Shown: positions 9,129-48,392, numbered from the stretch's first letter. The stretch is 64,000 nucleotides of DNA from Bacteroidota bacterium (GCA_037133475.1 JBAXOB010000014.1:8298-72297), one strand, 5' to 3'. Notes: generated by a model not told the origin, from the letters alone. Program-made: numbers and translations.

Positions 9129-9196
9129 CAAAGGTGATTCATTTAAGGCCGGCAATGGTTACACAATTCGGGATAAGAGTTACATCATTCACACAT
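9129..9196 (-). promoter_or_regulatory. Regulon promoter cassette 1 (csbD-1)
   Basis: ATGTGT GAATGATGTAAC-N9-GAATTGTGTAAC-N21-CACCTTTG. Confidence 0.9.
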
Positions 9197-9296
9197 TTGC
9201 CAGGTTTACATAAACCGGAAATGGTATCAAAACCGTTCATGTTGATATTGGTTGTTAATGAAGATGAAGATCGGAAACGGTTTCCGGAGAACTGTC

Positions 9297-9364
9297 ATGT
9301 GGGAATTATATAATTAATCTCCATAATTCTACAAGAAGGAATCAGTTTAATAGCGTTACCTTGA
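9297..9364 (+). promoter_or_regulatory. Regulon promoter cassette 2 (hybrid kinase 9405), divergent copy
   Basis: ATGTGG GAATTATATAAT-N9-TAATTCTACAAG-N21-TACCTTGA; same spacing, weaker match. Confidence 0.65.
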
Positions 9365-9404
9365 CAAAATAATAGAAACAACAAGTTCAGGTGATTTTCA
9401 AATT

Positions 9405-11936
9405 ATGTTAAACAATAAAAGCCAGGTGGAAACACCGGAAGACCAGACAAAGCTGGCTGACTCTGAAACCCGTTATCGCCGCCTCTTTGAAACGGCCAAG
9501 GACGGAATTCTGATTCTCGATGCCGAAACCGGCATGATCATGGATGTAAACCCGTTTTTAATAGAATTGCTGGGCTATTCCAAGGAACAGTTTATTGAAA
9601 AGGCAATATGGGAGATCGGTTTCTTCAAGGATATCGTGGCAAACCGGGAGAATTTTGCAGAATTACAGGTAAGGGAATACATCCGTTACGAGGATATGCC
9701 GCTTGAAACCGCCGACGGGCGCACGATCCATGTGGAGTTCGTGAGCAATGTCTACCTGGTCGACAAGCAAAAGGTAATCCAGTGCAATATCCGCGACATG
9801 ACCGAACGGGTCAGGGCCGAACTGGCCCTGGTCGTCTCTGAAACGAGATACCGCAGGCTCTTCGAAACAGCCCAGGATGGTATTCTTATCCTGGATGCCT
9901 CAACCGGGATGATCATGGATGTGAACCCGTTTTTAATTGAATTGCTGGGCTATACCAAGGAACAATTAATTGAAAAGGCTATCTGGGAGATTGGCTTTTT
10001 CAAGGATATCGTGGCAAACCAGGATAATTTCATGGAATTACAGCGCCGGGAATATATCCGTTATGAGAACATGCCCCTTGAAACCTCCGACGGGCGAACG
10101 ATTCATGTTGAATTTGTCAGCATTGTTTACCGGGTTGACAAGAAAAAGGTAATCCAGTGCAATATCCGCGACATCACCGACCGGGTCAGGGCTGAACGTT
10201 TTCAGAAACTTTCCAACGTTATCCTGAGGATACTGACCAGCAGCCTGGACCTGGAGAAACGCAGCATGGACATCATAAAGGCAATCCAGGAGGAAACGAA
10301 ATTTTCAGCGGTCGGGATTCGTCTGCAAAACCAGGAGGACTTTCCCTATTTTGTCCAGATCGGCTTTCCCGTTGAACTGATTCAAAGGGAAACCACCCTT
10401 GTTATCAGAGACGGGAAGGGCAGGGTATGCAGAGACAAAGATGGCCGGCAAATATTAGCATGTGCCTGTGGACTGGTACTATCCGGGAACACAGATCCTG
10501 CTTCACCATTTTGCACGGATTCAGGGAGTTTCTGGACAAATGATTCGTCGCAGATGTTATCCCTTCCAACCAACTTTGACCTGATACTTCATCCCCGGAA
10601 CATATGTATCCATGAGGGTTTTGGCTCAATTGCCATCATCCCCATCCTGGCCAATAAAAAAATCGTGGGTGTTCTGCAGCTGAATGAAAAGAAAAAAGGG
10701 GCCTTTACGCATGACATGATCCTCTTTTTTGAAGCGATCTGCCTGATAATCGGAACAGCAATCATGCGCAAGCAAAACACCGACGAACTCCTTATCGCAA
10801 AAGAACACGCCGAAGAGAGCGACCGGCTGAAATCAGCCTTCCTGGCCAACATGAGCCATGAGATCAGGACCCCGATGAACGGGATCCTCGGCTTTGCCGG
10901 GCTGTTGAAAGAGCCGGGGTTAACAGGCGAGGAGCAGGAAAAATACATCAGTATCATCGAAAAAAGCGGTGCCCGGATGCTCAATATCATCAACGACATT
11001 GTGAGCATCTCGAAAATTGAATCGGGGCAGATGGAAGTCTCCTTTTCAAAAACCAATGTAAACCAGCAGATGGAATACATCTATACCTTTTTCAAACCCG
11101 AGGCTGATCGTAAAAACATACAATTCAGGCTGGAAACCTCCTTAACTGCCGAGGATTCTATTATATATTCAGACCAGGAAAAGATAACCGCCATCCTGGT
11201 CAACCTCACCAATAATGCCCTTAAATTCTGCGACACAGGTTCCGTGGAGTTTGGATGCAAAATGAAGGGCAATTTCCTGGAATTCTTTGTGAAAGATACC
11301 GGTATCGGGATACCGGTACCGCGGCAAAAAGCAGTTTTTGATCGTTTTATCCAGGCTGATATCAGCGATAAAAGGGCATTCCAGGGAGCAGGCCTGGGAT
11401 TGTCCATTTCAAAAGCATACGTGGAAATGCTGGGTGGTTCCATAACGCTGGTCAGCGACGAAGGAAGGGGTTCCGAGTTTACCTTTACCATTCTCCATGC
11501 CCCCGAGGATGAATCAGCGGCGCCGAAGATCCAAGCATTCATGCCGGCAATTGAAGAGAACCATATCTCAAACCTCAATATACTGGTAGCAGAAGACGAC
11601 GAAACATCAGGAATTTTGATAAGCCTTGCCATCCGCAACCTGTCCAGGGAAATTTTCAGGGCCTCCAACGGCGCAGAAACCGTGGAGATTTGCCGTGCCA
11701 ATCCTGCAATCGATGTTATCCTGATGGACATGAAAATGCCCGTTATGGATGGATATTCAGCAACCCGGGAGATCCGCAAATTTAATAAAACAGTGGTTAT
11801 CATCGCGCAAACCGCTTACGGGCTTAGCGGCGACAAGGAGAAGGCGCTGGAGGCGGGATGCGACGGCTATATCGCAAAACCCTACAGCAATAATGCGCTG
11901 AGGGCCATACTAAACGTCTGCATGAAAAACAGGTAA
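9405..11936 (+). CDS. Hybrid sensor histidine kinase (PAS-PAS-GAF-HisKA-HATPase-REC)
   Basis: Two near-identical PAS domains, GAF, FLANMSHEIRTPMNGI H-box, DTGIG and GAGLGL G-boxes, receiver AEDD..LMDMKMP..K. Confidence 0.94.
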   Translation: MLNNKSQVETPEDQTKLADSETRYRRLFETAKDGILILDAETGMIMDVNPFLIELLGYSKEQFIEKAIWEIGFFKDIVANRENFAELQVREYIRYEDMPLETADGRTIHVEFVSNVYLVDKQKVIQCNIRDMTERVRAELALVVSETRYRRLFETAQDGILILDASTGMIMDVNPFLIELLGYTKEQLIEKAIWEIGFFKDIVANQDNFMELQRREYIRYENMPLETSDGRTIHVEFVSIVYRVDKKKVIQCNIRDITDRVRAERFQKLSNVILRILTSSLDLEKRSMDIIKAIQEETKFSAVGIRLQNQEDFPYFVQIGFPVELIQRETTLVIRDGKGRVCRDKDGRQILACACGLVLSGNTDPASPFCTDSGSFWTNDSSQMLSLPTNFDLILHPRNICIHEGFGSIAIIPILANKKIVGVLQLNEKKKGAFTHDMILFFEAICLIIGTAIMRKQNTDELLIAKEHAEESDRLKSAFLANMSHEIRTPMNGILGFAGLLKEPGLTGEEQEKYISIIEKSGARMLNIINDIVSISKIESGQMEVSFSKTNVNQQMEYIYTFFKPEADRKNIQFRLETSLTAEDSIIYSDQEKITAILVNLTNNALKFCDTGSVEFGCKMKGNFLEFFVKDTGIGIPVPRQKAVFDRFIQADISDKRAFQGAGLGLSISKAYVEMLGGSITLVSDEGRGSEFTFTILHAPEDESAAPKIQAFMPAIEENHISNLNILVAEDDETSGILISLAIRNLSREIFRASNGAETVEICRANPAIDVILMDMKMPVMDGYSATREIRKFNKTVVIIAQTAYGLSGDKEKALEAGCDGYIAKPYSNNALRAILNVCMKNR
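9462..10196 (+). repeat. Tandem 375-bp intragenic duplication (two PAS domains)
   Basis: TCTGAAAC.. at 9462 and 9837; translated SETRYRRLFETA(K/Q)DGILILDA...VIQCNIRD(M/I)T twice. Confidence 0.9.
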
Positions 11937-12225: not shown

Positions 12226-13491
12226 CTAAATAAACTGGATGCCAATGAGCACCACGGCTGCCACGGTCATCAGCGTAAGCGTGGCAAATCCGAGGAAGTT
12301 GGACCACTTCCCGTTTGTATATTTCCCCATGATCTTCTTGTTGTTGGAGATATGGAGGATAATCGCAATAAGCACAGGCGCGGTAACGCCGTAAAGGATG
12401 GCCGAATAGATCAGCGCCTTGACCGGTGAAATACCCACGTAGTTCAGGGACAATCCCAGCAAAAGAGATACGGCGATAATCAGGTAAAATGCCTTTGCTT
12501 CGTGGAATTTCTTATCCAGCCCCTCTTTCCAGCCAAAAGTTTCGGTAATGATATAGGAAAGCGACCCGCTCAGCACGGGGATGGCCAGGAGCCCGGTTCC
12601 AATCACCCCGAGGGCAAAAAGCAGGTAGGCCGAATTCCCGACCAGGGGCTGCAATGCCCGGGCAGCCTGTTCAACCGTATCTATTTTATGAATCCCGGCG
12701 TTAAAAAGGACCGTCCCGGTGGTAAGGATGATAAAAAACATGACAAGGTTGGAGAAAAGCATGCCGAAGTCGACATCCTGTTTCATTTCGTCCATCACCC
12801 TTTTGTTGACAACCAGCTGCTTCTTCCTGATTTTCCTGTCTTCAACCTCCATTGTTGCCTGCCAGAAGAAGAGGTAGGGCGAAATGGTGGTTCCCAGGAT
12901 GGCGACCAGGATGCTGATAAAGTTTTTATCAAAGATGATTTTCGGGACCAGGGTGGCTTTCAGAATGGCCAGCCAGTCCTGTTTGAATAAAAATGGAATT
13001 ACAAGATAGACAAACAGCGCCAGGCAAAGGTATTTCAGGATTGCTGCCATTTTCCGGTAGGGCAGCAGGATAATGAGTCCCAGCAATAAAAAGGTGAAAA
13101 AGATGCTGAACCATGTTGCATGGATGGTTGGGAACAACAGGTTCCCGACGGCCCCCATGCCTTCAATATCGGCGCCGATGTTTAAAACGATGGCGGGAAA
13201 GCTAAAAAACAGCATTAAATATAAAACGGGTTTTGAATAATTTGACCTGAGGGTTCCTGCCAGGCCATGGGAGGTAACCAGGCCGATCCTGGCGCACATC
13301 TCCTGGATGGAGGCCATGAGTGGGAAGGTGATCAATGCGGTCCAGAGGGTCGATAGCCCATAGGCTGCACCCGCCTGCGAATAGGTTGCAATGCCGGAGG
13401 GGTCATCATCACTCGCGCCGGTAACAAGCCCGGGGCCCAGGATTTTCCAGAACCTGAAAAATTTATTGAAAAGAATTTTCTTAACTGTCAT
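12226..13491 (-). CDS. Nramp-family divalent metal transporter
   Basis: LGPGLVTGASDDDPSGIATYSQAGA, LGTTISPYLFFWQ, about 11 hydrophobic segments. Confidence 0.9.
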   Translation of the reverse strand: MTVKKILFNKFFRFWKILGPGLVTGASDDDPSGIATYSQAGAAYGLSTLWTALITFPLMASIQEMCARIGLVTSHGLAGTLRSNYSKPVLYLMLFFSFPAIVLNIGADIEGMGAVGNLLFPTIHATWFSIFFTFLLLGLIILLPYRKMAAILKYLCLALFVYLVIPFLFKQDWLAILKATLVPKIIFDKNFISILVAILGTTISPYLFFWQATMEVEDRKIRKKQLVVNKRVMDEMKQDVDFGMLFSNLVMFFIILTTGTVLFNAGIHKIDTVEQAARALQPLVGNSAYLLFALGVIGTGLLAIPVLSGSLSYIITETFGWKEGLDKKFHEAKAFYLIIAVSLLLGLSLNYVGISPVKALIYSAILYGVTAPVLIAIILHISNNKKIMGKYTNGKWSNFLGFATLTLMTVAAVVLIGIQFI

Positions 13492-13941: not shown

Positions 13942-13948
13942 GATCAGG

Positions 13949-14290
13949 TTATTGAAGTACTTGTTTAATAATAAAATCCCCGGCGGCTTTTTTTATCTTC
14001 TTCCGCAGGAAAATATGAAGGAAACCTGCAGCCACAAGGTAAAAGGCAGCTACGATGAACAGTCCATACCAGTTTTTACCCAGCATTTCACCCAGGAAAA
14101 GGGCAACCGCCGCACTCAGTAAAAGGAAAAACATGGAAACCAGGAGCCATACGCACAGCCTTGGGATCAGGGAGGCCACTATTCGTGTTAACGCCTCCAG
14201 TAACCTGAATTTTGAAAGTTCAAAAGTTGTAGCACTAAATGCTTCTACGCGTTCCATTAAACGTTCGACTGAGTTTTCCCGGATTTCCAT
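13949..14290 (-). CDS. Phage-holin-like (YqjE/DUF1469-type) membrane protein
   Basis: TTFELSKFRLLE followed by two TM helices, WYGLFIVAAFY; follows YtxH. Confidence 0.8.
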   Translation of the reverse strand: MEIRENSVERLMERVEAFSATTFELSKFRLLEALTRIVASLIPRLCVWLLVSMFFLLLSAAVALFLGEMLGKNWYGLFIVAAFYLVAAGFLHIFLRKKIKKAAGDFIIKQVLQ

Positions 14291-15703: not shown

Positions 15704-15889
15704 CTACAGGGATGCTATGATCCTGTTCAACTCCTCCTTGGTTTTCCCAAGCTTGACCTGGAGCCGCCCGATCATCTCATCCTGCTTGCCTGCTTCAAAC
15801 ATCACATCATTATCGGTTAACACCGCGAATTTTTGCCTGAGCCTTCCTTTATGTTCATTCCAGGTTCCCAGTACTTCAGTCGTATTCAT
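15704..15889 (-). CDS. CsbD family general stress protein (copy 2)
   Basis: MNTTEVLGTWNEHKGRLRQKFAVLTDND; close paralog of 8906-9091. Start set at the matching Met, downstream of cassette 3. Confidence 0.92.
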   Translation of the reverse strand: MNTTEVLGTWNEHKGRLRQKFAVLTDNDVMFEAGKQDEMIGRLQVKLGKTKEELNRIIASL

Positions 15890-15919: not shown

Positions 15920-15987
15920 CAAAGGTGAGATTATGTTCAAGGGAATTTGTTACACTACTTTGGCAATTAGTTACATGATTCACACCT
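15920..15987 (-). promoter_or_regulatory. Regulon promoter cassette 3 (csbD-2...Nramp operon)
   Basis: AGGTGT GAATCATGTAAC-N9-AAGTAGTGTAAC-N21-CACCTTTG. Confidence 0.9.
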
Positions 15988-16715: not shown

Positions 16716-16783
16716 CAAAGATGGGTTGCCCCTGCTTGTGAAGTGTTATATAAATATGGGATTAAGTTGCAACATTCACACAT
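16716..16783 (-). promoter_or_regulatory. Regulon promoter cassette 4 (yceI)
   Basis: ATGTGT GAATGTTGCAAC-N9-TATTTATATAAC-N21-CATCTTTG. Confidence 0.87.
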
Positions 16784-18956: not shown

Positions 18957-19024
18957 CAAAGGTGTGCCCGTCGCGGGCAGTTTGTGTTACAAAATGTTGT
19001 AAATAACTTGCAATATTCACACCC
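18957..19024 (-). promoter_or_regulatory. Regulon promoter cassette 5 (BON-ohyA)
   Basis: GGGTGT GAATATTGCAAG-N9-ACATTTTGTAAC-N21-CACCTTTG. Confidence 0.85.
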
Positions 19025-19184: not shown

Positions 19185-19252
19185 ATGTGTGAATCATGCA
19201 AAGTATTTACAGATTTCTGTAACACTTTCAAGGGCGGGCATCCCTAGTTTTG
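19185..19252 (+). promoter_or_regulatory. Regulon promoter cassette 6 (mlaEFD-AI-2E)
   Basis: ATGTGT GAATCATGCAAA-N9-GATTTCTGTAAC-N21-TAGTTTTG. Confidence 0.9.
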
Positions 19253-20114: not shown

Positions 20115-20133
20115 TAAAAACAAAATTCCAACA

Positions 20134-20916: not shown

Positions 20917-20938
20917 CCTACATAATTCATTGAAATCC

Positions 20939-25645: not shown

Positions 25646-25713
25646 CAAAGGTCGGCGAGTTCCATGGCCGGTGTGTTACACAATATTCTAAATGAGTTGC
25701 ATGATTCACACCT
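25646..25713 (-). promoter_or_regulatory. Regulon promoter cassette 7 (DUF3494 gene)
   Basis: AGGTGT GAATCATGCAAC-N9-ATATTGTGTAAC-N21-GACCTTTG. Confidence 0.9.
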
Positions 25714-29169: not shown

Positions 29170-29237
29170 CAAAGGTCATTACACGGCTGGGGGATTGTGT
29201 TACATAATTCCGGGGAAGAGTTACATCATTCACATGC
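29170..29237 (-). promoter_or_regulatory. Regulon promoter cassette 8 (DUF6600-ompA)
   Basis: GCATGT GAATGATGTAAC-N9-GAATTATGTAAC-N21-GACCTTTG. Confidence 0.9.
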
Positions 29238-29251: not shown

Positions 29252-29319
29252 AAGTGTGAATCATGTAAGTAAATTCAATAAATATGTAACAATTAAGAAC
29301 TTACGGGTGCCCATCTTTG
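29252..29319 (+). promoter_or_regulatory. Regulon promoter cassette 9 (OmpA/MotB lipoprotein)
   Basis: AAGTGT GAATCATGTAAG-N9-TAAATATGTAAC-N21-CATCTTTG. Confidence 0.88.
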
Positions 29320-31017: not shown

Positions 31018-31085
31018 ATGTGTGAATGATGCAAAATATTCGAAAAATTATGTAACGGCCACCGGCCGGGCCGGGCATACCTTTG
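31018..31085 (+). promoter_or_regulatory. Regulon promoter cassette 10 (lmo0937-like, AI-2E)
   Basis: ATGTGT GAATGATGCAAA-N9-AAATTATGTAAC-N21-TACCTTTG. Confidence 0.92.
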
Positions 31086-32528: not shown

Positions 32529-32596
32529 TTGTGTGAATTATACAAATAATTTCAGGAATTGTGTAAAACTAAATCCTGTAATGTCCCCCAAATTTG
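32529..32596 (+). promoter_or_regulatory. Regulon promoter cassette 11 (araC-1, kinase, RR operon; putative autoregulation)
   Basis: TTGTGT GAATTATACAAA-N9-GAATTGTGTAAA-N21-CAAATTTG. Confidence 0.85.
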
Positions 32597-32751: not shown

Positions 32752-33321
32752 ATGAAAATTTATATTAAATACATGGTGAGTATCCGCTGTAAAATGGTGG
32801 TAAAAACCATCCTGAAAAAACTGGGGCTCCATTTCATCGTGGTCGACCTGGGCGAAGTGGAGATCATGGAAACACTCAGCGGGGAGCAGCACAGCCAGCT
32901 GGCGGTTGCATTACACGATGCCGGGCTTGAACTGATGGATGACAAAAGAGCGGTCCTGATTGAAAAGATCAAGAAGGTCATTATTGAAATGGTGCATTAT
33001 TCCGATGAAATGATCAAGGTTAACTTTTCTGATTTTTTAAGTAAAAAACTAAATCATGACTACACCTACCTGGCCAACCTGTTTTCAGAGGTCCAGGGAA
33101 CTACGATCGAGCATTTTATTATCTCCCATAAAGTAGAACGAATAAAAGAGCTGATCATTTATGACGAGCTAAACATCACGGAAATAGCATGGAAGCTGAA
33201 TTACAGCAGCGTTGCCCATCTGTCGAACCAGTTTAAAAAAGTCACAGGCCTCTCCCCTTCCCATTTTAAACAGCTGAAGGATAAACGGCGAAACCCGATC
33301 GAGGATGTGGGAAATGATTAA
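32752..33321 (+). CDS. AraC family transcriptional regulator with short N-terminal HMA-like domain (paralog 1)
   Basis: MKIYIKYMVSIRCKMVV...YTYLANLFS..LNITEIAWKLNYSSVAHLSNQFKKVTGLSPS double HTH. Confidence 0.93.
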   Translation: MKIYIKYMVSIRCKMVVKTILKKLGLHFIVVDLGEVEIMETLSGEQHSQLAVALHDAGLELMDDKRAVLIEKIKKVIIEMVHYSDEMIKVNFSDFLSKKLNHDYTYLANLFSEVQGTTIEHFIISHKVERIKELIIYDELNITEIAWKLNYSSVAHLSNQFKKVTGLSPSHFKQLKDKRRNPIEDVGND

Positions 33322-33372
33322 CGGATATCTCATAAATATTAGACAAATTATATGGAAATAGCAAAATCTTTG
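33305..33372 (+). promoter_or_regulatory. Degenerate 16th cassette at the araC-1 3' end
   Basis: ATGTGG GAAATGATTAAC-N9-ATAAATATTAGA-N21-AATCTTTG; spacing exact, boxes decayed. Confidence 0.35.
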
Positions 33373-36036
33373 GACTCGCAGTACACCAGGAGTTTGATGG
33401 AAACCTGCCTGGATCCCCTCGTGACCATCAACGAGAAGGGCCAGATAACCGACATGAACGCGGCATTGGTGACCATTACAGGAATTTCGCGTCAAAACCT
33501 GTCCGGAACAAACTTCTGCGATTGCTTTACCGAACCCGGTCATGCCACGGCGCTGTATATGGAAATTTTCACAAAGGGATCTGTTGGCGGGTCACATCTT
33601 TCACTTGTCAATCCTAAGGGTGCAATTTCCGAAGTGCTGATCAACGGCTCTGTTTACAAGGATAAAAATGGGATCGTACTGGGTGCCGTGGTAGTTGCCC
33701 GTGACATTGCCGGGCAAAAGCGGGCGCAGGAGCTGGTTATCGCCAACAGGGAACTTGCCTTCCAGAACGATGAAAAGGAAAAGCGTGCCCAGGAACTGAT
33801 CGTCGCAAACAAGGAACTTGCCTTCCAGAACGATGAAAAGGAAAAGCGTGCCCAGGAGCTGATCATCGCCAACAAGGAACTGGCCTTCCAGAACGATGAA
33901 AAGGAAAAGCGTGCCCAGGAGCTGATCATCGCGAATAAAGAGCTGGCCTTCCAGCACACCGAAAAGGAAAAAAGGGCTGCAGAACTGATCATTGCCAATA
34001 AAGAGCTGGCCTTTCTGAATGTCGAAAAAGAGAAACGGGCAGCAGAACTGATTATTGCCAACTATGCCCGCAGCCTGATTGAAGCAAGCCTTGATCCCTT
34101 GTTTACCATCAGCCTCGAAGGGAAAATCACCGATATGAACAAGGCTTCGGTTGATATTACCGGCGTGGCGCGTGAAAAATTGCTGGGTTCCGATTTTTTC
34201 GACTATTTCACCGAACCGCAAAAGGCACGGGAAGTTTACCTGGAGGTCTTTGCCAATGGCTATGTGGCGGATTACCCGCTCACGATCAGGGATGGAAAAC
34301 TGACCGATGTCCTTTTCAACGGCTCTGTTTATACCGATGACCAGGGCGAGGTTATTGGCGTGGTGGTCGTTGCACGGGATATAACCGATCAAAAAAGGGT
34401 TGCAACGGAATTAACCGAGGCCATCGTGTTTGCCGAACTGGCCACCGGAATCGCCGAAGAGGCCAAGATCAAGGCCGAAAATGCCACCCTTATTGCAGAA
34501 AATGCGGTCAAGGCAAAACAGCAGTTCTTGTCGAACATGAGCCATGAAATCCGTACCCCGATGAATGCCATTATCGGTTTCACCAAGGTGCTGCTGAAAA
34601 CCGACCTGTCGGTCAAGCAGCGGGAATACCTGACTGCTATCAAAATGAGCGGCGACGCACTCATTGTGCTGATCAACGATATCCTCGACCTTGCCAAGGT
34701 GGATGCCGGCAAAATGATATTTGAGCAAACCCCTTTTAAAATTGCCCTTTCCATTTCCGCCATGCTGCACCTGTTCGACACTAAAATACAGGAAAAAAAC
34801 CTGCACCTGTTTAAAGAGTATGATGACCGTATCCCTGACGTATTGGTTGGCGACCCGGTCAGGCTGCACCAGATCATCCTGAACCTGGTCAGCAACGCCG
34901 TGAAATTCACCACCAAGGGGTCGATAACCGTGAGCGTCCATATGATCAAGGAGGATGCAGAAACCGTAACCATTGAATTTACCGTTTCAGATACCGGTAT
35001 AGGCATCGCAGAAAACAAGATTGACAAGATTTTTGAAAATTTCCAGCAGGCTTCGAGCGGCACGTCAAGGTTGTATGGTGGCACAGGCCTTGGTCTTGCC
35101 ATTTCGAAACAATTGGTTGAAGCCCAGGATGGGACGATCCGCGCCGAAAGCACGATCAATGTCGGCTCCACCTTCAGCTTTATCCTGTGTTTCCTGAAAA
35201 CCAAGGTGGAGGCCGAATCTGATATGCAGATCCTGGAACTTGACAGCGAGATTAAAAACATCAAAGTGCTGGTTGCCGAGGATATCCCCCTTAACCAATT
35301 ACTGATGAAGACATTGCTGGATGATTTTGGTTTTGAACGGGATATTGCGGCCAATGGGAAGATTGCGGTTGAAAAGCTCAGGGAGAAACCCTATGATATA
35401 ATCCTGATGGACTTGCAGATGCCCGAGATGAATGGGTTTGAGGCGACAGAATATATCCGCAGCACGCTGAAACTTCAAATTCCGATCATTGCGTTAACGG
35501 CCGATGTAACCACGGTTGACCTGGCCAAATGTAAAGCGGTTGGGATGAATGACTACATCGCCAAACCTGTAGATGAAAGGCTGCTTTACAGCAAAATTGT
35601 CGGGTTGGTAAAAAAACCCGGGCTAACCAAGGAACCTGATCTATCAGAAACGGAATTGATGACCGTTGCAAAGCCCAGGTGCACCGACCTGGAATACCTT
35701 ATGCGCCGTACAAAATCAAATCCCAAACTGATGATGGAGATGATTTCACTCTACCTGGAACAAACACCCCTGCTGATCACCATCATGAAGAAAAGTTTCA
35801 GGGAAAAAGACTGGACATCGCTGCATGCTGCGGTGCATAAGATGATCCCCTCTTTTGCGATTATGGGGATCAGCGTTGACTTTGAAAACATGGCAAAAAA
35901 AGTCCAGGACTATGCCGGGGTGCAACAGCAGGCCGAAAGCATGCTGGACCTGGTCAGGCAGCTTGGGAACGTATGCACACAGGCATGCGGCGAGCTGGAA
36001 GAGGAGTTTAACCGGATCAAAAACGATAACCCGTGA
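33352..36036 (+). CDS. Hybrid histidine kinase (PAS, coiled-coil repeats, PAS, HisKA, HATPase, REC, HPt)
   Basis: FLSNMSHEIRTPMNAI, GGTGLGL, LMDLQMP, C-terminal AAVHKMIPS HPt-like helix. Confidence 0.94.
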   Translation: MEIAKSLDSQYTRSLMETCLDPLVTINEKGQITDMNAALVTITGISRQNLSGTNFCDCFTEPGHATALYMEIFTKGSVGGSHLSLVNPKGAISEVLINGSVYKDKNGIVLGAVVVARDIAGQKRAQELVIANRELAFQNDEKEKRAQELIVANKELAFQNDEKEKRAQELIIANKELAFQNDEKEKRAQELIIANKELAFQHTEKEKRAAELIIANKELAFLNVEKEKRAAELIIANYARSLIEASLDPLFTISLEGKITDMNKASVDITGVAREKLLGSDFFDYFTEPQKAREVYLEVFANGYVADYPLTIRDGKLTDVLFNGSVYTDDQGEVIGVVVVARDITDQKRVATELTEAIVFAELATGIAEEAKIKAENATLIAENAVKAKQQFLSNMSHEIRTPMNAIIGFTKVLLKTDLSVKQREYLTAIKMSGDALIVLINDILDLAKVDAGKMIFEQTPFKIALSISAMLHLFDTKIQEKNLHLFKEYDDRIPDVLVGDPVRLHQIILNLVSNAVKFTTKGSITVSVHMIKEDAETVTIEFTVSDTGIGIAENKIDKIFENFQQASSGTSRLYGGTGLGLAISKQLVEAQDGTIRAESTINVGSTFSFILCFLKTKVEAESDMQILELDSEIKNIKVLVAEDIPLNQLLMKTLLDDFGFERDIAANGKIAVEKLREKPYDIILMDLQMPEMNGFEATEYIRSTLKLQIPIIALTADVTTVDLAKCKAVGMNDYIAKPVDERLLYSKIVGLVKKPGLTKEPDLSETELMTVAKPRCTDLEYLMRRTKSNPKLMMEMISLYLEQTPLLITIMKKSFREKDWTSLHAAVHKMIPSFAIMGISVDFENMAKKVQDYAGVQQQAESMLDLVRQLGNVCTQACGELEEEFNRIKNDNP
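33718..34062 (+). repeat. 63-bp coding tandem repeat, about 5.5 copies (EKEKRAQELIIANKELAFQND)
   Basis: Visible in both DNA and protein between the two PAS domains. Confidence 0.95.
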
Positions 36037-36136: not shown

Positions 36137-36571
36137 ATGAAAACCGAAAATAAGATCAAATTGTTCCTGGTGGATGACGATGCCCTGTTTCTGAAATCAC
36201 TGGAAATTGAATTCCTGCAGCATGCCGACTTTGCCATTGAAACCTTTGCAACCGGCGAACTTTGTATAGCGGAATTATCGCACCTGCCGGATGTGATCAT
36301 CCTGGACTACATGCTCGACGGTATCGACAGGTTCGCCATGAACGGGATCGACACCCTCGATTTAATCAAGGCCTTCGACCCTGATATTCCTGTTGTCATG
36401 CTGTCATCGCAGGATAAAATCGAGGTCGCTGTGAATTGCATGCACCACAGGGCATTCGATTATGTGGTGAAAAGTGAAACTGCCTTCCTGCGGCTGCAGA
36501 AGATCATCTCCACAATTTTCAAGTACAAGAAAATGGAAAAGGAGTTGAACTGGTATATGGAGAGGATGTAA
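36137..36571 (+). CDS. Single-domain response regulator
   Basis: LVDDD, ILDY phosphoacceptor, MLSS, DYVVK; no output domain, only a short C-terminal helix. Confidence 0.93.
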   Translation: MKTENKIKLFLVDDDALFLKSLEIEFLQHADFAIETFATGELCIAELSHLPDVIILDYMLDGIDRFAMNGIDTLDLIKAFDPDIPVVMLSSQDKIEVAVNCMHHRAFDYVVKSETAFLRLQKIISTIFKYKKMEKELNWYMERM

Positions 36572-36749: not shown

Positions 36750-36817
36750 ATGTGTGAATCATGTAACATAATTTTGAAATTATATAACACATTCCGCATC
36801 ACCGCGAACGACCTTTG
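36750..36817 (+). promoter_or_regulatory. Regulon promoter cassette 12 (acidic protein, USP and downstream genes)
   Basis: ATGTGT GAATCATGTAAC-N9-AAATTATATAAC-N21-GACCTTTG. Confidence 0.92.
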
Positions 36818-44405: not shown

Positions 44406-44473
44406 CAAAAATAACATTTCCTTCAGGTTATTGTATTATATAATTCCGGTTGAATTTTACATAATTCACACAT
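44406..44473 (-). promoter_or_regulatory. Regulon promoter cassette 13 (PAP2)
   Basis: ATGTGT GAATTATGTAAA-N9-GAATTATATAAT-N21-TATTTTTG. Confidence 0.9.
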
Positions 44474-44542: not shown

Positions 44543-44728
44543 TCAGACATGAATATTCATCAGGTAGGCAAAAAGTCCGAAAACCTTGAGCAGCCATACG
44601 ATCACCACAACCACGACCACAACGTTGAAGATCCTTTTTATCTTGATATCCATCGGTATGTAGGAGTTGACGAGCCAGAGCAGCACTCCGACGACGATCA
44701 GTACGATTAATATTGTAAACAGTGGCAT
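44543..44728 (-). CDS. Thivi_2564-like small membrane protein, 61 aa
   Basis: MPLFTILIVLIVVGVLLWLVNSYIPMDIKIKRIFNVVVVVVVIVWLLKVFGL; start downstream of cassette 14. Confidence 0.87.
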   Translation of the reverse strand: MPLFTILIVLIVVGVLLWLVNSYIPMDIKIKRIFNVVVVVVVIVWLLKVFGLFAYLMNIHV

Positions 44729-44751: not shown

Positions 44752-44819
44752 CAAAGGTACAGGTCAGAAAGCCGGCAAGTGTTACATAACAAAATGAATA
44801 ACTTACATCATTCACACAT
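44752..44819 (-). promoter_or_regulatory. Regulon promoter cassette 14
   Basis: ATGTGT GAATGATGTAAG-N9-TTGTTATGTAAC-N21-TACCTTTG. Confidence 0.9.
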
Positions 44820-44864: not shown

Positions 44865-47237
44865 TCAATGGACCAGGGCCCTGCTATTCCTTTTCCGCTC
44901 CCGGCGATATTTTTCCCTTGGCGGAAACTGGTTTAATTCATTCAACCTTTCGTAGGCTCTCAGTACCGATCGCGGGAACACCCCATGATAACTGATCCTG
45001 TAAAAAGAAAATCCATTATAGGGGATGACATTAACTGCCGCTGACATCTCAATCCTGTCTGCCACTTTCCTGCTTCTGAAAACTGAATAAAAAACCTCCG
45101 AGCGCCGGTGGTTCAACTCGCGGAACCTGTTATTTATCAAGGATGAATCGATAATCCTGGCATATTTTTCCTGGTTGGTGCAGAGTGCGGGGTCGTGGGT
45201 CTGGCTGTTTAAATACTGCAAAAAGCGGGGATCCTGCGGCGACAACCTGTCCACAGTTTCTGAATCATGTTCATTGAAGGTCCTGCTGGTTTTTTGACTG
45301 GCCGCCAGGAAATACTTTTTCTTTGCTTCAAAAAACAGGATATACTCCTTTTCCCTGGCATCGTACTGGTGCGGTTCAACAGAAACTACCGATCCGGGAT
45401 TTTCGGCAAGGAAGTCCGCCATTTTTATCATAAATTTTTTCTGCCTGTCGCTCAGTGAGTACTGGCGCATCTGCCATTTCAATGTGAGCGACTTTTCAAT
45501 TTCAGTCTCAAGGCTACTGACCTCCATCCGGTAAGGCGTGGTGAGCGGTTTTATAAAAATATTTTTAACAAGATCGGCCAGGATATCCCCCAGGTGGAAT
45601 TCAGGGACCTTCAGGTTTCCTGTTATCGGAATTTCATAGTCAATCACATTCCCCTTTTCACGGATTAATGACATGATAACGGTGAGCGGAAGCCATGTGA
45701 TGCCCCCGTTCTTCAAATGACCTGCAACCCGCGGGTCAATGATCACCAGGTGGTTATTGCTTTGGATGATCCCCTTCCTGACTTTCCACGACCCATTGAT
45801 TTCCAGGCTCCCCCTGTCAACAGGAAAGGAGGTGTAGGTGACCAGGTAGGGGTTAAACATGGCGACAGGCAGTTGCTGAAGGTGATATTGCAGATCAAAA
45901 TCGGTGCTGTCGCGGGGGTTTACTTTTAGGGTGACCATGGCATTGCCATATGGCAGAATCCCTGATTTAACAACCACATCAATCCATTTTTGCCTCTTAT
46001 AAACAGAATCGGCCGTTATCTCCAGCGGGCTTAACTCAACTGAAAATTTCTCGAAGGGTTTGTAGTCGTTGAATTTAACATCCCCCCTGCAAATTTCAAA
46101 CCTGTTGATCCTGTAGTTGCTCTGGAAAAAGTTCGCCGACAGCATTTTAATATAGCGGCCTATTTCAATGACAAGATTAAACCGGGCAGGATCTGAAATT
46201 ACCCGGTTCATTTTTCCAGCGCTGCTGTCAAAGATAACCTGCAGGTTATTAAGCTTTTCATAGTGTTCGAATTTGAAAATGGGGTGAATGAGCGATACGG
46301 TATCGAACTGGTATTGATGTTTGCCGGGGTTAATGTTGATAATTGACAGGCTGAGGCGGTCAAAGGAAAACAGGTCATCACTCCGGTTTTTCCCAAAATG
46401 AAAATCATTGATGGCCATCCGGCCTGCGGCCGAGAGATTTTGTTCATCCTTCAGGTTACCGGTTGCCTTCAGATCGACGTCGAGGTTGGCGGTGAACTTG
46501 CCGCCACTGACCAGGTCACGGAGGTACTGACCAATGAGGTTCAGGTCGAATTTACGGGCGATAACCCGGTACCGGTAATCCATTGTCCTGAAATTTATGG
46601 TAAAATCGCCCCTGATATCTCCTGCCCCGATACCGGGCTGAAGGGCAAACTTTGCCGCCAGGGTGTCGGCATTCCACCTTTTCCCGGTACTTTCGATATT
46701 TACGTGACGGATAAAATAGTCGACCGGAACCTGCCGTTCGTGAAAATAAAATTCACCTTCGGTAATGTTAACATGGAGAAAATTAAGATGGACCGCCGAA
46801 GAAGTTTTACGCTTTTTCGACGGGGTAAACCTGGTTACCAGGTCACTGAAATTAAAATCCTTTTTATCCATGAAAACCGTTCCCCTGGGCTTGTCGAGGT
46901 CGAGTTCAGTTATTTCAACAATTTTATGGAAGAGCTGATGCAGGGAGAACGTTGCGCTTAGCCCATTCGCCGTAAAAAAAAGGCTGTCGGCCGGCCGTCC
47001 TACATTCCACTTCGTTGATTCATAAATCTTAAGGTTGCTGATATGGACATAGCCGGTAAACGGATTCACATAAATCCAGCCCGTGGTGATTTTCCTTCCC
47101 GTTACCTCTTCATCATAACGTCCGACCAGGTACGCGGCCAATGGGGATGCCACGATGATAACAACCACAAAGAGAACTGTAACGGTACAGATCAGGATCG
47201 CAACCGATTTTATCAACCTGGATTTCGTAAATTTCAT
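44865..47237 (-). CDS. DUF748 (AsmA-like) protein
   Basis: N-terminal TM, VNPFTG, FNFSDL, IDYEIPITGNLKVPEF. Confidence 0.82.
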   Translation of the reverse strand: MKFTKSRLIKSVAILICTVTVLFVVVIIVASPLAAYLVGRYDEEVTGRKITTGWIYVNPFTGYVHISNLKIYESTKWNVGRPADSLFFTANGLSATFSLHQLFHKIVEITELDLDKPRGTVFMDKKDFNFSDLVTRFTPSKKRKTSSAVHLNFLHVNITEGEFYFHERQVPVDYFIRHVNIESTGKRWNADTLAAKFALQPGIGAGDIRGDFTINFRTMDYRYRVIARKFDLNLIGQYLRDLVSGGKFTANLDVDLKATGNLKDEQNLSAAGRMAINDFHFGKNRSDDLFSFDRLSLSIININPGKHQYQFDTVSLIHPIFKFEHYEKLNNLQVIFDSSAGKMNRVISDPARFNLVIEIGRYIKMLSANFFQSNYRINRFEICRGDVKFNDYKPFEKFSVELSPLEITADSVYKRQKWIDVVVKSGILPYGNAMVTLKVNPRDSTDFDLQYHLQQLPVAMFNPYLVTYTSFPVDRGSLEINGSWKVRKGIIQSNNHLVIIDPRVAGHLKNGGITWLPLTVIMSLIREKGNVIDYEIPITGNLKVPEFHLGDILADLVKNIFIKPLTTPYRMEVSSLETEIEKSLTLKWQMRQYSLSDRQKKFMIKMADFLAENPGSVVSVEPHQYDAREKEYILFFEAKKKYFLAASQKTSRTFNEHDSETVDRLSPQDPRFLQYLNSQTHDPALCTNQEKYARIIDSSLINNRFRELNHRRSEVFYSVFRSRKVADRIEMSAAVNVIPYNGFSFYRISYHGVFPRSVLRAYERLNELNQFPPREKYRRERKRNSRALVH

Positions 47238-47319
47238 TGGCGGTGGTATCGTCATCATTGCCGGATGGCCATGCGGTTACAGGATTACCCCCTGACAGGG
47301 GCCAAAGCCTAGCGACCTA

Positions 47320-48210
47320 TTATTTCAGGGCCAGCTGGCGGCCTGTTCCCAGTTTCCAGTGTACACTCACCCCAACTTCATCAGGAGAAGTAGTGAGACC
47401 AAGGGCAAGATACCTGCTGCAGGGAACCTTGTGTAATGCCGGCACCACGATCCCGATAACGGCGCCCAGCACAAAACCAACGGCAACATCCGAGGGGAAG
47501 TGATCCAGCGATTTTATCCGCGCATAACCTATAGCAAGAGGCGGTACCGATGCAGCAAGGTACAGGAGATATTTAACCGCCCCGATATTGGGATGATAAT
47601 CGCAATAGGCCTTGACCATAAAAAAGGTGCTGTAGGTGCACGATCCGACATGCCCGCTGAAAAATGAATTGCGGCTGTTGTTGTTCGCACGGACATCGTG
47701 GGCAAGGTCGGTATAATACACAACCGGGCGATAACGGTTGATGAAGGTTGGTCCGAACGGGCTGTAATTGTACATACTAAAGGTTACCGTGTGCCCCTCC
47801 ACGTAAATTAACAACAGGTCCAGCCAGTCCCGGCGCATATTTTTATCAATCATCAGCAGGCTGGGAAGCAGGAAAATACCAATCTCCCCGTAATCCGATA
47901 TTTTCTTGAATAATGGGCGGTCTGCCGGATTCTGCTGCAACGACCACCTGTCAATTGAGTTCAGTAAATTTCTCTGCAATTCCAGGTTTTTTGGAAGAAG
48001 TTCCTCATCGGTAACAGCTAATTTGTTTTTCAGGCGGCTGATGGCAAAAAAATCTCCTGCCATCCCCACGCCAATAATACTGCCTGTTACGATGTAGTTG
48101 ACACGATACACTTTTGCTTTTTTTACAACTGTTTTCGTTGAATCGGAAGATTGGCAAAAAATTCCCAGGGGAATGAAAATGACCGCAAAAAAAATGACCA
48201 GGGCTTTCAT
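47320..48210 (-). CDS. PAP2 family phosphatase
   Basis: RYRP, SFFSGH, ARIKSLDHFPSDV. Confidence 0.9.
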   Translation of the reverse strand: MKALVIFFAVIFIPLGIFCQSSDSTKTVVKKAKVYRVNYIVTGSIIGVGMAGDFFAISRLKNKLAVTDEELLPKNLELQRNLLNSIDRWSLQQNPADRPLFKKISDYGEIGIFLLPSLLMIDKNMRRDWLDLLLIYVEGHTVTFSMYNYSPFGPTFINRYRPVVYYTDLAHDVRANNNSRNSFFSGHVGSCTYSTFFMVKAYCDYHPNIGAVKYLLYLAASVPPLAIGYARIKSLDHFPSDVAVGFVLGAVIGIVVPALHKVPCSRYLALGLTTSPDEVGVSVHWKLGTGRQLALK

Positions 48211-48324
48211 AAGGTATAGTGCAAATTATGGGTGAATTTGCCGACGGCTACCTGGTGCCTGCGATCAGTTGCAATGGAAAAAATAATATTCAAACCAACT
48301 GCGGACAGGATAGGTCAACAGGTG

Positions 48325-48392
48325 CAAAGATGCAGCGGAATGGTTAAAGGAGTGTTACACAACTTTGAATGAAAGTTGCATCATTCACACAT
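48325..48392 (-). promoter_or_regulatory. Regulon promoter cassette 15 (PAP2-DUF748), overlapping the araC-2 stop codon
   Basis: ATGTGT GAATGATGCAAC-N9-AAGTTGTGTAAC-N21-CATCTTTG; AAT GTG TGA encodes Asn-Val-stop of araC-2. Confidence 0.92.

What the first reader, a model, noticed from the sequence alone, without database searches (positions are those of the whole stretch)
9129..48392. A 68-bp activator-dependent promoter cassette repeated 15 times with invariant spacing defines a 40-kb regulon
Seen: 15 intergenic copies start at 9129-, 9297+, 15920-, 16716-, 18957-, 19185+, 25646-, 29170-, 29252+, 31018+, 32529+, 36750+, 44406-, 44752- and 48325-. Each reads tGTGT-GAATnATGYAAn, N9, nAWTnTRTAAC-like, N21, nAnnTTTG. 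In every copy box 2 starts exactly 21 bp after box 1, the final octamer starts 54 bp after box 1, and the cassette points into a downstream gene. The spacers are not conserved, so this is not a mobile repeat. I found no copy outside about 9-48.4 kb. Established: TAnnTTTG is the Bacteroidota primary-sigma -7 element, and its -33 element lies about 19-21 nt upstream, where box 2 ends. AraC-family activators bind direct half-sites with a 21-bp period overlapping the -35 region (araI1-I2). Inference: these are class II activator sites of a single regulator. I know of no description of this motif.
Basis: partly seen in the sequence, partly recalled or inferred. Interest (0 to 1): 0.93.

Follow-up and report, generated by a model that had tools for sequence, protein, structure and literature searches.

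The report
Stress-regulon promoter cassette of Bacteroidota
A rigid 68-bp promoter module (two direct-repeat activator boxes plus a Bacteroidota -7 box) drives about 40 stress and envelope genes here, recurs across the phylum next to a conserved pair of small AraC-type regulators, and looks like an undescribed general stress circuit.

Summary
All 15 copies sit at the stated coordinates and align without gaps. A whole-genome scan finds 18 copies scoring 44-72 bits and nothing else above 14.7.

Each copy holds a direct repeat AATnnTGYAAC with a 21-bp period, an unconserved 21-nt spacer, then nAnCTTTG. Every copy points into a gene. The genes are stress and envelope types: CsbD, BON, YceI, Usp, CbpA/M, Mla, OmpA, PAP2, two hybrid kinases and a receiver.

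The cassette is conserved across Bacteroidota beside a roughly 186-aa AraC regulator. Of 80 homologous loci, 44 hold 105 strong copies. In 151 class genomes, 29 of 29 with an AraC of 61% identity or more have the cassette, against 5 of 72 without any homologue. The regulator's N-terminal domain is a degenerate HMA domain, SxxC in place of CxxC.

Best reading: class II activator sites for the AraC paralogue pair, under a PAS hybrid-kinase phosphorelay. No transcription start or binding data exist. No description was found in ten literature searches or in Rfam. I rate it a new variant of a known kind.

The parts
9129..9196 (-). Cassette 1; drives CsbD (8906-9091).
   Evidence: (69.5 bits); Pfam CsbD.
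9297..9364 (+). Cassette 2, the weakest and degenerate copy; drives the PAS-PAS-GAF hybrid histidine kinase HK1 (9405-11936).
   Evidence: (44.4 bits); Pfam.
15920..15987 (-). Cassette 3. Drives a second CsbD (15704-15889), an sll1863-family stress protein (15181-15621), an unknown 186-aa protein, a holin-X/YqjE-like protein (13949-14290), an unknown 135-aa protein, and possibly Nramp (12226-13491).
   Evidence: Pfam and NCBIfam.
16716..16783 (-). Cassette 4; drives YceI (16035-16655).
18957..19024 (-). Cassette 5; drives a BON-domain protein (18453-18905) and an MCRA/oleate-hydratase family protein (16796-18430).
19185..19252 (+). Cassette 6; drives MlaE, MlaF, MlaD and an AI-2E family transporter (19275-22888).
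25646..25713 (-). Cassette 7; drives an ice-binding-like, PKD-containing T9SS-sorted protein (22978 to about 25606).
29170..29237 (-). Cassette 8; drives DUF6600 (27946-29136) and a 726-aa OmpA-domain protein (25815-27995).
29252..29319 (+). Cassette 9, 14 bp from cassette 8 and divergent from it; drives an OmpA-domain protein (29350-30144) and an unknown 221-aa protein.
31018..31085 (+). Cassette 10; drives DUF5670 (31126-31281) and a second AI-2E transporter (31321-32421).
32529..32596 (+). Cassette 11; drives the AraC1-HK2-REC operon, so AraC1 is autoregulated.
   Evidence: Six of 25 AraC1-type genes in other loci also have a cassette within 300 nt upstream.
32752..33321 (+). AraC1: 189 aa, an HMA-like N-terminal domain (MVSIRC) plus an AraC HTH_18 domain. 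The likely start is MKIYIKYMV.
   Evidence: 70% identical to AraC2; the 189-aa form is on record.
33352..36036 (+). HK2: a soluble hybrid histidine kinase with PAS-PAS-HisKA-HATPase-REC domains and a weak C-terminal Hpt.
   Evidence: Hpt scores E=0.0029, below the cut-off. It follows AraC1-type genes in 18 of 25 cases.
36137..36571 (+). REC144: a single-domain response regulator with a conserved C-terminal helix.
   Evidence: D13/D14, D57, S90 and K112 are invariant in 25 homologues.
36750..36817 (+). Cassette 12. Drives an unknown protein (about 36877-37182), Usp, a 62-aa ORF, CbpA-like DnaJ, CbpM-like MerR_2 and a P-type cation ATPase (to 42222).
   Evidence: (72.5 bits).
44406..44473 (-). 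Cassette 13; drives PAP2 (43507-44373) and a Beta-lactamase2-family protein (42257-43315).
44752..44819 (-). Cassette 14; drives a 61-aa two-helix membrane protein (44543-44728).
48325..48392 (-). Cassette 15; drives PAP2 (47320-48210) and DUF748 (44865-47258). Its 5' end overlaps the stop codon of AraC2.
   Evidence: The same overlap is seen in 24 of 80 loci.
48385..48945 (-). AraC2: 186 aa, with the same architecture as AraC1 and no cassette upstream.
   Evidence: None of 74 AraC2-type genes in 80 loci has a cassette upstream, and 31 of 74 have one at or just after the stop codon.

Best explanation
Each cassette is an activator-dependent sigma-A promoter.

The 3' octamer nAnCTTTG is the Bacteroidota -7 box. 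The usual -33 element is missing, and box 2 occupies its place. Box 1 and box 2 are two similar half-sites (AATnnTGYAAC) in direct repeat, 21 bp apart, on the same face of the helix.

I infer that two protomers of the small AraC-family proteins AraC1 and AraC2 bind them, as homodimers or as a heterodimer. Each protomer would use its two helix-turn-helix motifs on one half-site. The promoter-proximal protomer would touch RNA polymerase, as XylS and AraC do at Pm and araBAD.

AraC2 is not under a cassette and would set the basal level. AraC1 sits behind a cassette, in an operon with a soluble PAS hybrid kinase (with a probable Hpt) and a single-domain receiver. I infer that this phosphorelay, together with the second cassette-driven kinase HK1, tunes activator activity and gives positive feedback.

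The regulators' N-terminal domain descends from a metal-binding HMA domain. It has lost the first cysteine (SxxC), so it has probably been reused for dimerisation, partner binding or redox sensing.

The output is about 40 genes for envelope, osmotic and stationary-phase-type protection. That makes it a functional analogue of the RpoS, sigma-B and EcfG general stress regulons.

Shown here: the anatomy, the specificity, the conservation, the co-occurrence and the domain homology. Inferred: binding, activation rather than repression, the transcription start, the inducing signal and the role of the phosphorelay.
For: 1. Rigid anatomy and specificity.

2. -7 box. TAnnTTTG peaks 16-45 nt upstream of 1,757 long ORFs in this genome (134 and 122 per 15-nt bin against about 25 background), and its reverse complement shows no peak. 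The cassette TTTG lies a median of 39 nt before the start codon in 98 of 105 cassettes that have a downstream ORF. The box position at -12 to -5 comes from passages of PMC9723704.

3. AraC link in 20 relatives. All 7 genomes with 7 or more pattern hits carry at least two paralogues of 51-100% identity. The 5 same-genus genomes with 0 hits carry only a 35-37% paralogue.

4. AraC link in 80 loci fetched by the AraC protein. Fifty-eight hold at least one cassette of 25 bits or more, and 44 hold 105 cassettes of 35 bits or more. Of those 105, 103 lie on the AraC strand.

5. AraC link in 151 genomes of the class. The cassette model matches:
- 29 of 29 genomes whose best AraC is 61% identical or more;
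- 15 of 24 at 49-58%;
- 7 of 26 at 48% or less;
- 5 of 72 with no homologue.

6. Fixed micro-synteny. A cassette overlaps the AraC2-type stop codon in 24 of 80 loci. AraC1-type genes are followed by the kinase in 18 of 25 cases.

7. Conserved regulon content. The 105 cassettes drive CsbD 20 times, ice-binding-like proteins 15, AraC1 5, BON 4 and sll1863 4.

8. The AraC DNA-binding domain matches solved AraC/XylS-family domains such as YesN, XylR, AraC and SoxS.

9. XylS binds two 15-bp direct repeats as a dimer (passages of PMC5481539).

10. No other DNA-binding domain was found among the island's proteins.
Against: - No transcription start, expression or binding data exist. No RNA run was listed.
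- Co-occurrence cannot separate the AraC genes from other island genes that come and go with them.
- Genomes are related, so the counts overstate independence.
- Exceptions. Family f26 (G034, G039, G044) has 2 good strict-pattern cassettes each, and its only homologue is a 35-43% CxxC-type AraC. G335 has 3 cassettes and G223 has 2 with no homologue at E<=1e-25. G298 has 3 cassettes with only a 38% homologue.
- The first position of the octamer is C in about 60% of copies, not the consensus T. A C before TTTG is about 90% conserved. I cannot explain either feature.
- The Hpt assignment is below Pfam's cut-off.
- One of the 29 genomes in the top class (G296) is an unpublished genome. Without it the count is 28 of 28.
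Confidence: 0.65

Rival explanations
1. The boxes are bound by a different transcription factor encoded elsewhere, for instance a LytTR-type or other response regulator fed by the island's hybrid kinases. On this view the AraC genes are merely regulon members.
For: - LytTR regulators classically use direct repeats with a period of about 21 bp (recalled, not from a call).
- G000 has 8 LytTR-domain genes.
- A few genomes have cassettes without a close AraC.
- The kinases are hybrid and need a terminal acceptor.
Against: - None of the 8 LytTR genes lies on a contig that carries a cassette.
- Cassette presence rises stepwise with AraC identity.
- A cassette overlaps the AraC stop codon in 24 of 80 loci.
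- AraC1 is autoregulated.
- In f26 the CxxC-type AraC genes are themselves followed by a degenerate cassette.
Confidence: 0.15
2. The boxes are operators of a repressor, AraC-type or other. The promoters would then be intrinsically active.
For: Some AraC-family proteins repress. Nothing here measures the direction of control.
Against: - The boxes lie upstream of the core promoter at about -72 to -34. They do not lie over the -7 box or the start.
- The -33 element is replaced in all copies.
- The window holds 0 full TTTG-N18-22-TAnnTTTG promoters, against 1.0 expected.
- The fixed helical register with the -7 box is typical of contact with polymerase.
Confidence: 0.07
3. The whole cassette is the promoter of a dedicated alternative sigma factor, with TGTAAC as its -35 element.
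For: GTAAC resembles ECF-type -35 elements (recalled, not from a call).
Against: - TGTAAC lies 25 nt from TTTG, and no conserved element lies 16-18 nt downstream of it.
- Box 1 repeats box 2, which a sigma factor does not need.
- No sigma-factor gene is in the island.
- The only conserved downstream element is the sigma-A type box.
Confidence: 0.04
4. The cassette is a mobile repeat or a structured RNA element.
For: It is a many-copy repeat of fixed length.
Against: - The spacers are unconserved.
- RNAalifold predicts 0 pairs on 120 copies.
- The window has 0 Rfam matches.
- Nothing is conserved in the 60 nt upstream.
- The window holds no tRNA, and its composition is not distinct.
Confidence: 0.01

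Closest known systems
XylS at the Pm promoter and AraC at araI1-I2 (AraC/XylS class II activation)
   Same: - Two similar half-sites lie in direct repeat, about two helical turns apart.
- The proximal site abuts or overlaps the -35-equivalent element.
- The regulator has a C-terminal double helix-turn-helix domain and an N-terminal domain of another function.

The XylS features come from passages of PMC5481539. The AraC spacing is recalled, not from a call.
   Different: - The core promoter is the Bacteroidota -7/-33 type.
- The half-site sequence AATnnTGYAAC is unrelated to TGCA-N6-GGNTA.
- The N-terminal domain is a 70-aa degenerate HMA domain, not a sugar- or effector-binding cupin-type domain.
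- Two paralogues are retained.
- 18 or more promoters per genome share one rigid cassette.
Bacteroidota hybrid two-component systems (HTCS: sensor, kinase, receiver and AraC fused in one protein)
   Same: Both combine a histidine kinase, a receiver and an AraC-type output in Bacteroidota. A solved 'hybrid two-component system protein' matches the DNA-binding domain at E=4e-6.
   Different: - Here the parts are separate genes: AraC, a soluble PAS hybrid kinase and a single-domain receiver.
- The AraC protein has no receiver domain.
- The targets are stress genes, not polysaccharide-utilisation loci.
General stress regulons: RpoS (E. coli), sigma-B (Bacillus) and EcfG/PhyR (Alphaproteobacteria)
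   Same: - The gene content overlaps: CsbD, BON/OsmY-like, YceI, Usp and CbpA/CbpM-like proteins. That these belong to the RpoS and sigma-B regulons is recalled, not from a call.
- One promoter signature marks the whole regulon.
- Control runs through a phosphorelay or partner switch.
   Different: Control would be by an activator acting on the housekeeping sigma factor, not by an alternative sigma factor. Induction by stress has not been tested.
MarA, SoxS and Rob (small AraC-family stress activators)
   Same: They are small AraC-family activators of stress regulons with class I and class II sites. SoxS matches the DNA-binding domain at E=0.003.
   Different: Those proteins bind a single asymmetric site as monomers. 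Here two tandem sites are always present, and the protein carries an extra N-terminal domain.

Membership tests
AraC/XylS family transcription factor (AraC1, AraC2) | A C-terminal domain of about 100 aa with two helix-turn-helix motifs (Pfam HTH_18 / HTH_AraC). | tested here: met
   HTH_18 scores E=2.8e-16 and 5.5e-14, both above the cut-off. The profile matches solved AraC-family domains.
AraC/XylS-type class II activator site | Two similar half-sites in direct repeat about 21 bp apart. | tested here: met
   The profile correlation is 0.50 and 0.58 at shift 21, and 0.17 or less at every other shift from 15 to 27.
AraC/XylS-type class II activator site | The proximal half-site abuts or overlaps the -35-equivalent element at a fixed distance from the core promoter. 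| tested here: met
   Box 2 ends 21 nt before the -7 octamer in all 18 own copies and in 105 foreign copies. The numbering relies on the -12 to -5 position taken from PMC9723704. The transcription start itself is inferred.
AraC/XylS-type class II activator site | The regulator binds the site and activates transcription. | not testable with these tools
   This needs EMSA, footprinting, ChIP or reporter assays.
Bacteroidota sigma-A promoter | A -7 box TAnnTTTG. | tested here: inconclusive
   A at position 2 is 100% conserved and TTT is 100% conserved; the last base is G in about 80% of copies. Position 1 is T in only about 20% of copies and C in about 60%. The genome as a whole uses TAnnTTTG.
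Bacteroidota sigma-A promoter | A -33 element TTTG about 20 nt upstream of the -7 box. | tested here: not met
   The columns at that place read AACA, the 3' end of box 2. This is what an activator-dependent promoter would show.
HMA (heavy-metal-associated) domain | Homology to the HMA fold. | tested here: met
   I aligned the N-terminal region of 66 family members against 30 Pfam-HMA hits from relatives with hhalign. Probability is 92%, E=5.7e-7, over 60 columns in the MxCxxC register. A reversed control gives probability 1.6%. Pfam HMA itself does not hit, and the close clade alone gives only E=0.012.
HMA (heavy-metal-associated) domain | The metal-binding motif M-x-C-x-x-C. | tested here: not met
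   AraC1 and AraC2 and 40 close homologues all read M-V-S-x-R-C, with S10, R12 and C13 invariant in 42 of 42. By contrast, 22 of 24 distant paralogues keep CxxC.
His-Asp phosphorelay | HisKA and HATPase domains with a receiver, an Hpt domain, and a terminal receiver with catalytic residues. | tested here: inconclusive
   The kinase and receiver domains are clear. Hpt scores only E=0.0029 at 18.2 bits against a cut-off of 24.6. REC144 keeps D13/D14, D57, S90 and K112 in 25 of 25 homologues.
General stress response regulon | The member genes are induced together by diverse stresses or by stationary phase. | not testable with these tools
   Only gene content supports this. No RNA run was listed.
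LytTR-regulated promoters | A LytTR response regulator is linked to the sites. | tested here: not met
   G000 has 8 LytTR genes, and none lies on contigs C14, C10, C34 or C40, which hold the cassettes. Physical linkage is not required for regulation, so this weakens the idea but does not exclude it.

The most novel reading that the evidence does not exclude
Bacteroidota are not known to me to have an RpoS, sigma-B or EcfG-type general stress regulator. They may instead run a phylum-wide general and envelope stress response through an activator-based circuit.

In this reading an HMA-derived pair of AraC activators, controlled by a soluble PAS hybrid-kinase, Hpt and single-receiver phosphorelay, switches on a regulon. 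Every member of that regulon carries the same rigid 68-bp class II promoter cassette.

The HMA domain's loss of one cysteine (CxxC to SxxC) would mark the conversion of a metal-sensing regulator family into a stress master regulator.
Probability: 0.4. Interest if true: 0.85.

Novelty: new variant of a known kind. Interest (0 to 1): 0.72.

Why it matters
If right, this gives Bacteroidota a defined stress-response circuit with a machine-readable promoter signature. Bacteroidota are a major phylum of soil, water and gut.

The regulon could then be read directly from any genome or metagenome.

It would also name a very large uncharacterised regulator family. At least 7,999 clusters match at E<=1e-40, all with generic names.

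It would provide a compact, portable inducible promoter-and-activator module for genetic tools in Bacteroidota.

Finally, it poses a clear evolutionary question: how was a metal-binding HMA domain turned into the control domain of a stress activator?

Tried and rejected
Expression evidence. The look-up of sequencing runs on window:25000-34000 (kind rna) listed no RNA holder, so no reads could be laid and no transcription start could be tested.

I then stopped and used hhalign instead.

Nothing was folded, so the receiver-AraC contact remains pure inference.

Pfam and NCBIfam on the N-terminal domain gave no family. The Atlas gave only a lead, a 'Heavy-metal-associated domain-containing protein' cluster at 0.88, below its 0.9 mark.

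Structured-RNA reading: rejected. Mobile-element reading: rejected.

Strict IUPAC pattern as a phylum-wide detector. It is too narrow. It found only 18 of 201 genomes and missed variants such as TGTGATATATGTAAC next to 72-74% AraC homologues. I replaced it with a sequence-only profile, R1.

Literature. Ten searches found no description of the motif, the regulator clade or the regulon. One search served to find the -7 box papers and the XylS papers. Of PMC9723704 and PMC5481539 I read only the passages returned by 'find'. Supplements were closed, and the promoter tables of PMC9723704 might hold related motifs. About 1.7 million PMC articles and all subscription journals were not searched.

The unknown regulon proteins (135, 186, 221 and about 101 aa) stayed without a family.

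Full report
OBSERVATION

The consensus of the genome's copies is AtGTGTGAAT.ATG.AA, then 10 variable bases, then AaTT.TgTAACAc, then about 19 unconserved bases, then AcCTTTG.

Fourteen of the 15 end in TTTG. The copy at 9297+ is degenerate in box 2 and in the last octamer.

I built a PWM from the 15 copies and scanned both strands of the whole assembly (4,610,539 bp, 96 contigs; the window is C14:8298-72297). It gave 18 sites at 44.4-72.5 bits, and the next best site scored 14.7. The 15 window copies match by construction. The independent information is the empty score range and three further copies at C10:64675-, C40:4917- and C34:17779-.

Scanning with only the two boxes (columns 1-41) returns the same 18 sites. 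The boxes therefore never occur without the terminal octamer at the fixed distance.

The profile of box 1 correlates with the profile 21 columns downstream at r=0.50 for the 18 own copies and r=0.58 for 105 foreign copies. It does not correlate at any other shift from 15 to 27 (r of 0.17 or less). The 60 nt upstream of the cassette are unconserved.

The shared half-site is AATnnTGYAAC. Box 1 carries an extra 5' TGTG.

Every copy faces a co-directional ATG-started ORF that begins 22-155 nt after TTTG. For 36750+ the database record begins at the ATG 59 nt downstream.

My count of the first spacer is 10, not 9.

WHAT THE CASSETTES DRIVE

Pfam and NCBIfam give the following:
- CsbD twice
- an sll1863-family stress protein
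- a holin-X/YqjE-like membrane protein
- YceI
- a BON-domain protein
- an MCRA-family hydratase
- MlaE, MlaF and MlaD
- two AI-2E transporters
- an ice-binding-like T9SS protein
- two OmpA-domain proteins
- DUF6600, DUF5670 and DUF748
- Usp
- a CbpA-like DnaJ with a CbpM-like MerR_2 protein
- a P-type cation ATPase
- two PAP2 phosphatases
- a Beta-lactamase2-family protein
- small membrane proteins
- two hybrid histidine kinases, a single-domain receiver and one AraC gene

Every gene between about 8.9 and 48.3 kb lies behind one of the 15 cassettes, except AraC2 (48385-48945).

The three outlying copies face unknown exported proteins and a DUF3943 protein.

The flanks hold ordinary chromosomal genes: LpxD, an M1 peptidase, MscL, a branching enzyme and a DEAD helicase. 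The window holds no tRNA, and its composition is not distinct. I see no sign of a mobile island.

THE CORE PROMOTER

Passages of PMC9723704 place the Bacteroidota sigma-A box TAnnTTTG at -12 to -5.

In this genome TAnnTTTG is strongly enriched 16-45 nt upstream of the first ATG of 1,757 long ORFs. Those two 15-nt bins hold 134 and 122 occurrences, against about 25 in background bins. The reverse complement has no peak. The organism therefore uses this promoter type.

With the last G at -5, box 2 spans about -44 to -34 and box 1 about -65 to -55. The place of the usual -33 TTTG reads AACA, the 3' end of box 2.

That is the layout of an activator-dependent class II promoter. Two details do not fit the plain consensus:
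- The first octamer base is C in about 60% of copies.
- The base before TTTG is C in about 90% of copies.

THE CANDIDATE REGULATORS

AraC1 (likely start 32752) and AraC2 are 70% identical. Each has about 70 N-terminal residues, a short linker and an HTH_18 AraC domain. That domain matches solved AraC-family DNA-binding domains.

AraC1 heads an operon with two further genes:
- A soluble PAS-PAS-HisKA-HATPase-REC kinase. Its C-terminal 145 residues weakly match Hpt (E=0.0029, below the cut-off).
- A 144-aa receiver. Its acidic pocket, D57, S90 and K112 are invariant in 25 homologues, and it has a conserved C-terminal helix.

The cassette at 48325- begins inside the last codons of AraC2...E-N-V-stop is the 5' part of box 1.

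COMPARATIVE EVIDENCE

(a) Twenty relatives.
- The strict pattern (up to 1 mismatch) occurs 15-31 times in 5 same-genus genomes and 7 times in one genome of another family.
- The reversed-pattern control gives 0 in all 21 genomes.
- All 7 cassette-rich genomes, G000 included, carry at least two AraC paralogues of 51-100% identity.
- The 5 same-genus genomes with no hit (70-98% complete) carry only a 35-37% paralogue.
- G003 has 2 hits and only a 35% paralogue. G006 has 1 hit and a 74%-identical fragment at a contig end. These are partial exceptions.

(b) Loci fetched by the AraC protein.
- The search for related loci reported at least 579 homologous loci and kept 80. They come from Chitinophagaceae, Cytophagales, Flavobacteriales, Sphingobacteriales, Saprospiraceae, Paludibacter, Melioribacteraceae and others, at 69-87% identity.
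- Within 10 kb either side, 58 of 80 loci hold a cassette of 25 bits or more. Forty-four hold 105 cassettes of 35 bits or more, all with the same spacing, and 103 of the 105 lie on the AraC strand.
- In 24 loci a cassette overlaps the AraC stop codon exactly as in the window.
- None of 74 AraC2-type genes has a cassette upstream, and 31 have one at the stop. Six of 25 AraC1-type genes have one upstream.
- Eighteen of 25 AraC1-type genes are followed by the kinase.
- The first ORF behind the 105 cassettes is: CsbD 20, ice-binding-like 15, AraC1 5, BON 4, sll1863 4, the 61-aa membrane protein 4, the unknown 186-aa protein 4, PAP2 3, OmpA 3, three others once each, no window homologue 33, and no ORF 7.

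(c) The class sample. I built a sequence-only profile of 120 cassettes (R1) and ran it on 151 genomes of the class, each at least 90% complete. It matched 56 of them. I sorted the genomes by their best match to AraC2:

| Best AraC identity | Genomes with a cassette |
|---|---|
| 61% or more | 29 of 29 |
| 49-58% | 15 of 24 |
| 48% or less | 7 of 26 |
| no match at E<=1e-25 | 5 of 72 |

- Of the 19 genomes with 5 or more cassettes, 16 have an AraC of 61% or more. Two of the other three have partial ORFs of 54-56%, and one has a 54% homologue.
- G296 is an unpublished genome and is one of the 29. Without it the count is 28 of 28.
- Genomes are related and several genes of the island travel together. 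This is therefore association, not proof.

EVIDENCE AGAINST THE ARAC LINK

- Family f26 (G034, G039, G044) has 2 strict-pattern cassettes per genome; a PWM rescan of the fetched regions scored these and one extra site in G034 at 41-64 bits. They face DUF748, SOUL with a homologue of the unknown 119-aa protein, OmpA, and unknown proteins. Its only homologue is 35-43% identical and of the CxxC type.
- In two of these three genomes that gene is immediately followed by a degenerate cassette of 16-20 bits, with box 2 and the -7 box in register. The wider family may therefore use the same architecture.
- G335 (3 cassettes of the variant TGTAAAT), G223 (2) and G298 (3; 91% complete) lack a close AraC.
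- In the phylum sample the strict pattern missed variant cassettes that sit next to 72-74% AraC homologues (L093, L094). In L095, beside a 67% homologue, no cassette above 20 bits was found.

THE N-TERMINAL DOMAIN

- Pfam and NCBIfam give nothing for it.
- Distant paralogues read N-M-[TV]-C-x-x-C where AraC1 and AraC2 read Y-M-V-S-x-R-C.
- hhalign of the close clade against 30 Pfam-HMA hits from relatives is weak: E=0.012, probability 3.5%.
- With 24 distant paralogues added, the probability is 92% and E=5.7e-7 over 60 columns in the MxCxxC register. A reversed control gives 1.6%.
- Twenty-two of the 24 distant paralogues keep CxxC. All 42 members of the cassette-linked clade have S10, R12 and C13.
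- The regulators are thus HMA-AraC fusions whose metal site is half lost.

MECHANISM PROPOSED

Shown: the cassette anatomy, its specificity, its conservation, its linkage to the AraC clade and to the kinase-receiver operon, and the domain homologies.

Inferred:
- Two AraC protomers bind the two half-sites.
- The proximal protomer recruits sigma-A polymerase in place of the missing -33 contact.
- AraC2 gives basal competence.
- The cassette-driven AraC1-HK2-REC144 operon and HK1 give signal input and positive feedback.
- The output is a general and envelope stress programme.

Rivals are given with their odds in the Rival explanations section: another regulator such as a LytTR protein, a repressor, a dedicated sigma factor, or an RNA or mobile element. 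G000 has 8 LytTR genes, none on a cassette-bearing contig. RNAalifold finds no pair in 120 copies, and Rfam has no match in the window.

COMPARISON WITH KNOWN SYSTEMS, AND NOVELTY

The circuit works like XylS at Pm or AraC at araI. XylS binds two 15-bp direct repeats as a dimer (passages of PMC5481539). In parts list it resembles a Bacteroidota hybrid two-component system split into separate genes.

It differs in four ways: the half-site, the core promoter type, the HMA-derived control domain, and its use as a regulon-wide signature.

Homologues carry only generic names. At least 7,999 clusters match at E<=1e-40, and the window proteins' own clusters are unnamed.

Ten literature searches found no description. 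Subscription journals, supplements and about 1.7 million PMC articles were not searched.

VERDICT

It is a new variant of a known kind. Interest 0.72.

Noticed in passing
window 48385-48392: The last codons and stop codon of AraC2 (E-N-V-stop) are at the same time the 5' part of box 1 of the next promoter. The same dual use is seen in 24 of 80 loci from other Bacteroidota.
   Followed up: yes
cassette columns 16-20 and 28-32 (e.g. window 36765-36781): Between the boxes many copies carry a short inverted repeat, AACTT...AAGTT or AAATT, inside an A/T-rich stretch (67-74% A+T). It may be a bend or an extra contact. RNAalifold did not call it.
   Followed up: no
cassette columns 61 and 64: The -7 octamer deviates from TAnnTTTG in a conserved way. 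Position 1 is mostly C, and the base before TTTG is C in about 90% of 105 copies. I have no explanation.
   Followed up: partly
L093:7729-7796, L093:9750-9817; L094:10703-10770, L094:12730-12797: In two genomes of family f34 the cassette next to a 72-74% AraC homologue is a variant: TGTGATATATGTAAC...TGTAACAGTT...CATTTTGA, with the -7 box shifted by one. It stands before tandem ice-binding-like T9SS genes.
   Followed up: partly
L102:3936-4003 (-); L103:5003-5070 (+): The CxxC-type HMA-AraC genes of family f26 are directly followed by a degenerate cassette. Box 2 and the -7 box are in register, and box 1 reads AAAATCATGAA. The wider family may share the promoter architecture.
   Followed up: partly
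L097:6775-16619: One genome (G090) has the AraC1 - hybrid kinase - receiver module duplicated in tandem.
   Followed up: no
G000 C1:12040-12585 (L106:3041-3586): The window's own genome holds a third, distant HMA-AraC paralogue (37% identity) with the canonical M-T-C-x-x-C motif. No cassette-like site above 8 bits lies in the first 25 kb of contig C1, which contains the gene. It is present in all 12 same-genus genomes searched, including those without cassettes.
   Followed up: partly
window 59782-62742: A NarL/LuxR-type two-component pair (a PAS-HisKA_3 kinase and a REC-GerE regulator) lies 11 kb beyond the last cassette. Nothing links it to the cassettes.
   Followed up: no
window 1-64000: The full canonical promoter TTTG-N18-22-TAnnTTTG occurs 0 times in the window, against 1.0 expected by chance. 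The -7 box alone is strongly enriched upstream of genes genome-wide. The -33 element seems weakly conserved in this organism.
   Followed up: partly
window 22978-25665; 49135-52068; 5300-7219; 56490-58124: Four proteins carry the T9SS C-terminal sorting domain. Only the ice-binding-like one stands behind a cassette. Ice-binding-like proteins are the second most frequent cassette-driven gene in other genomes (15 of 105).
   Followed up: partly
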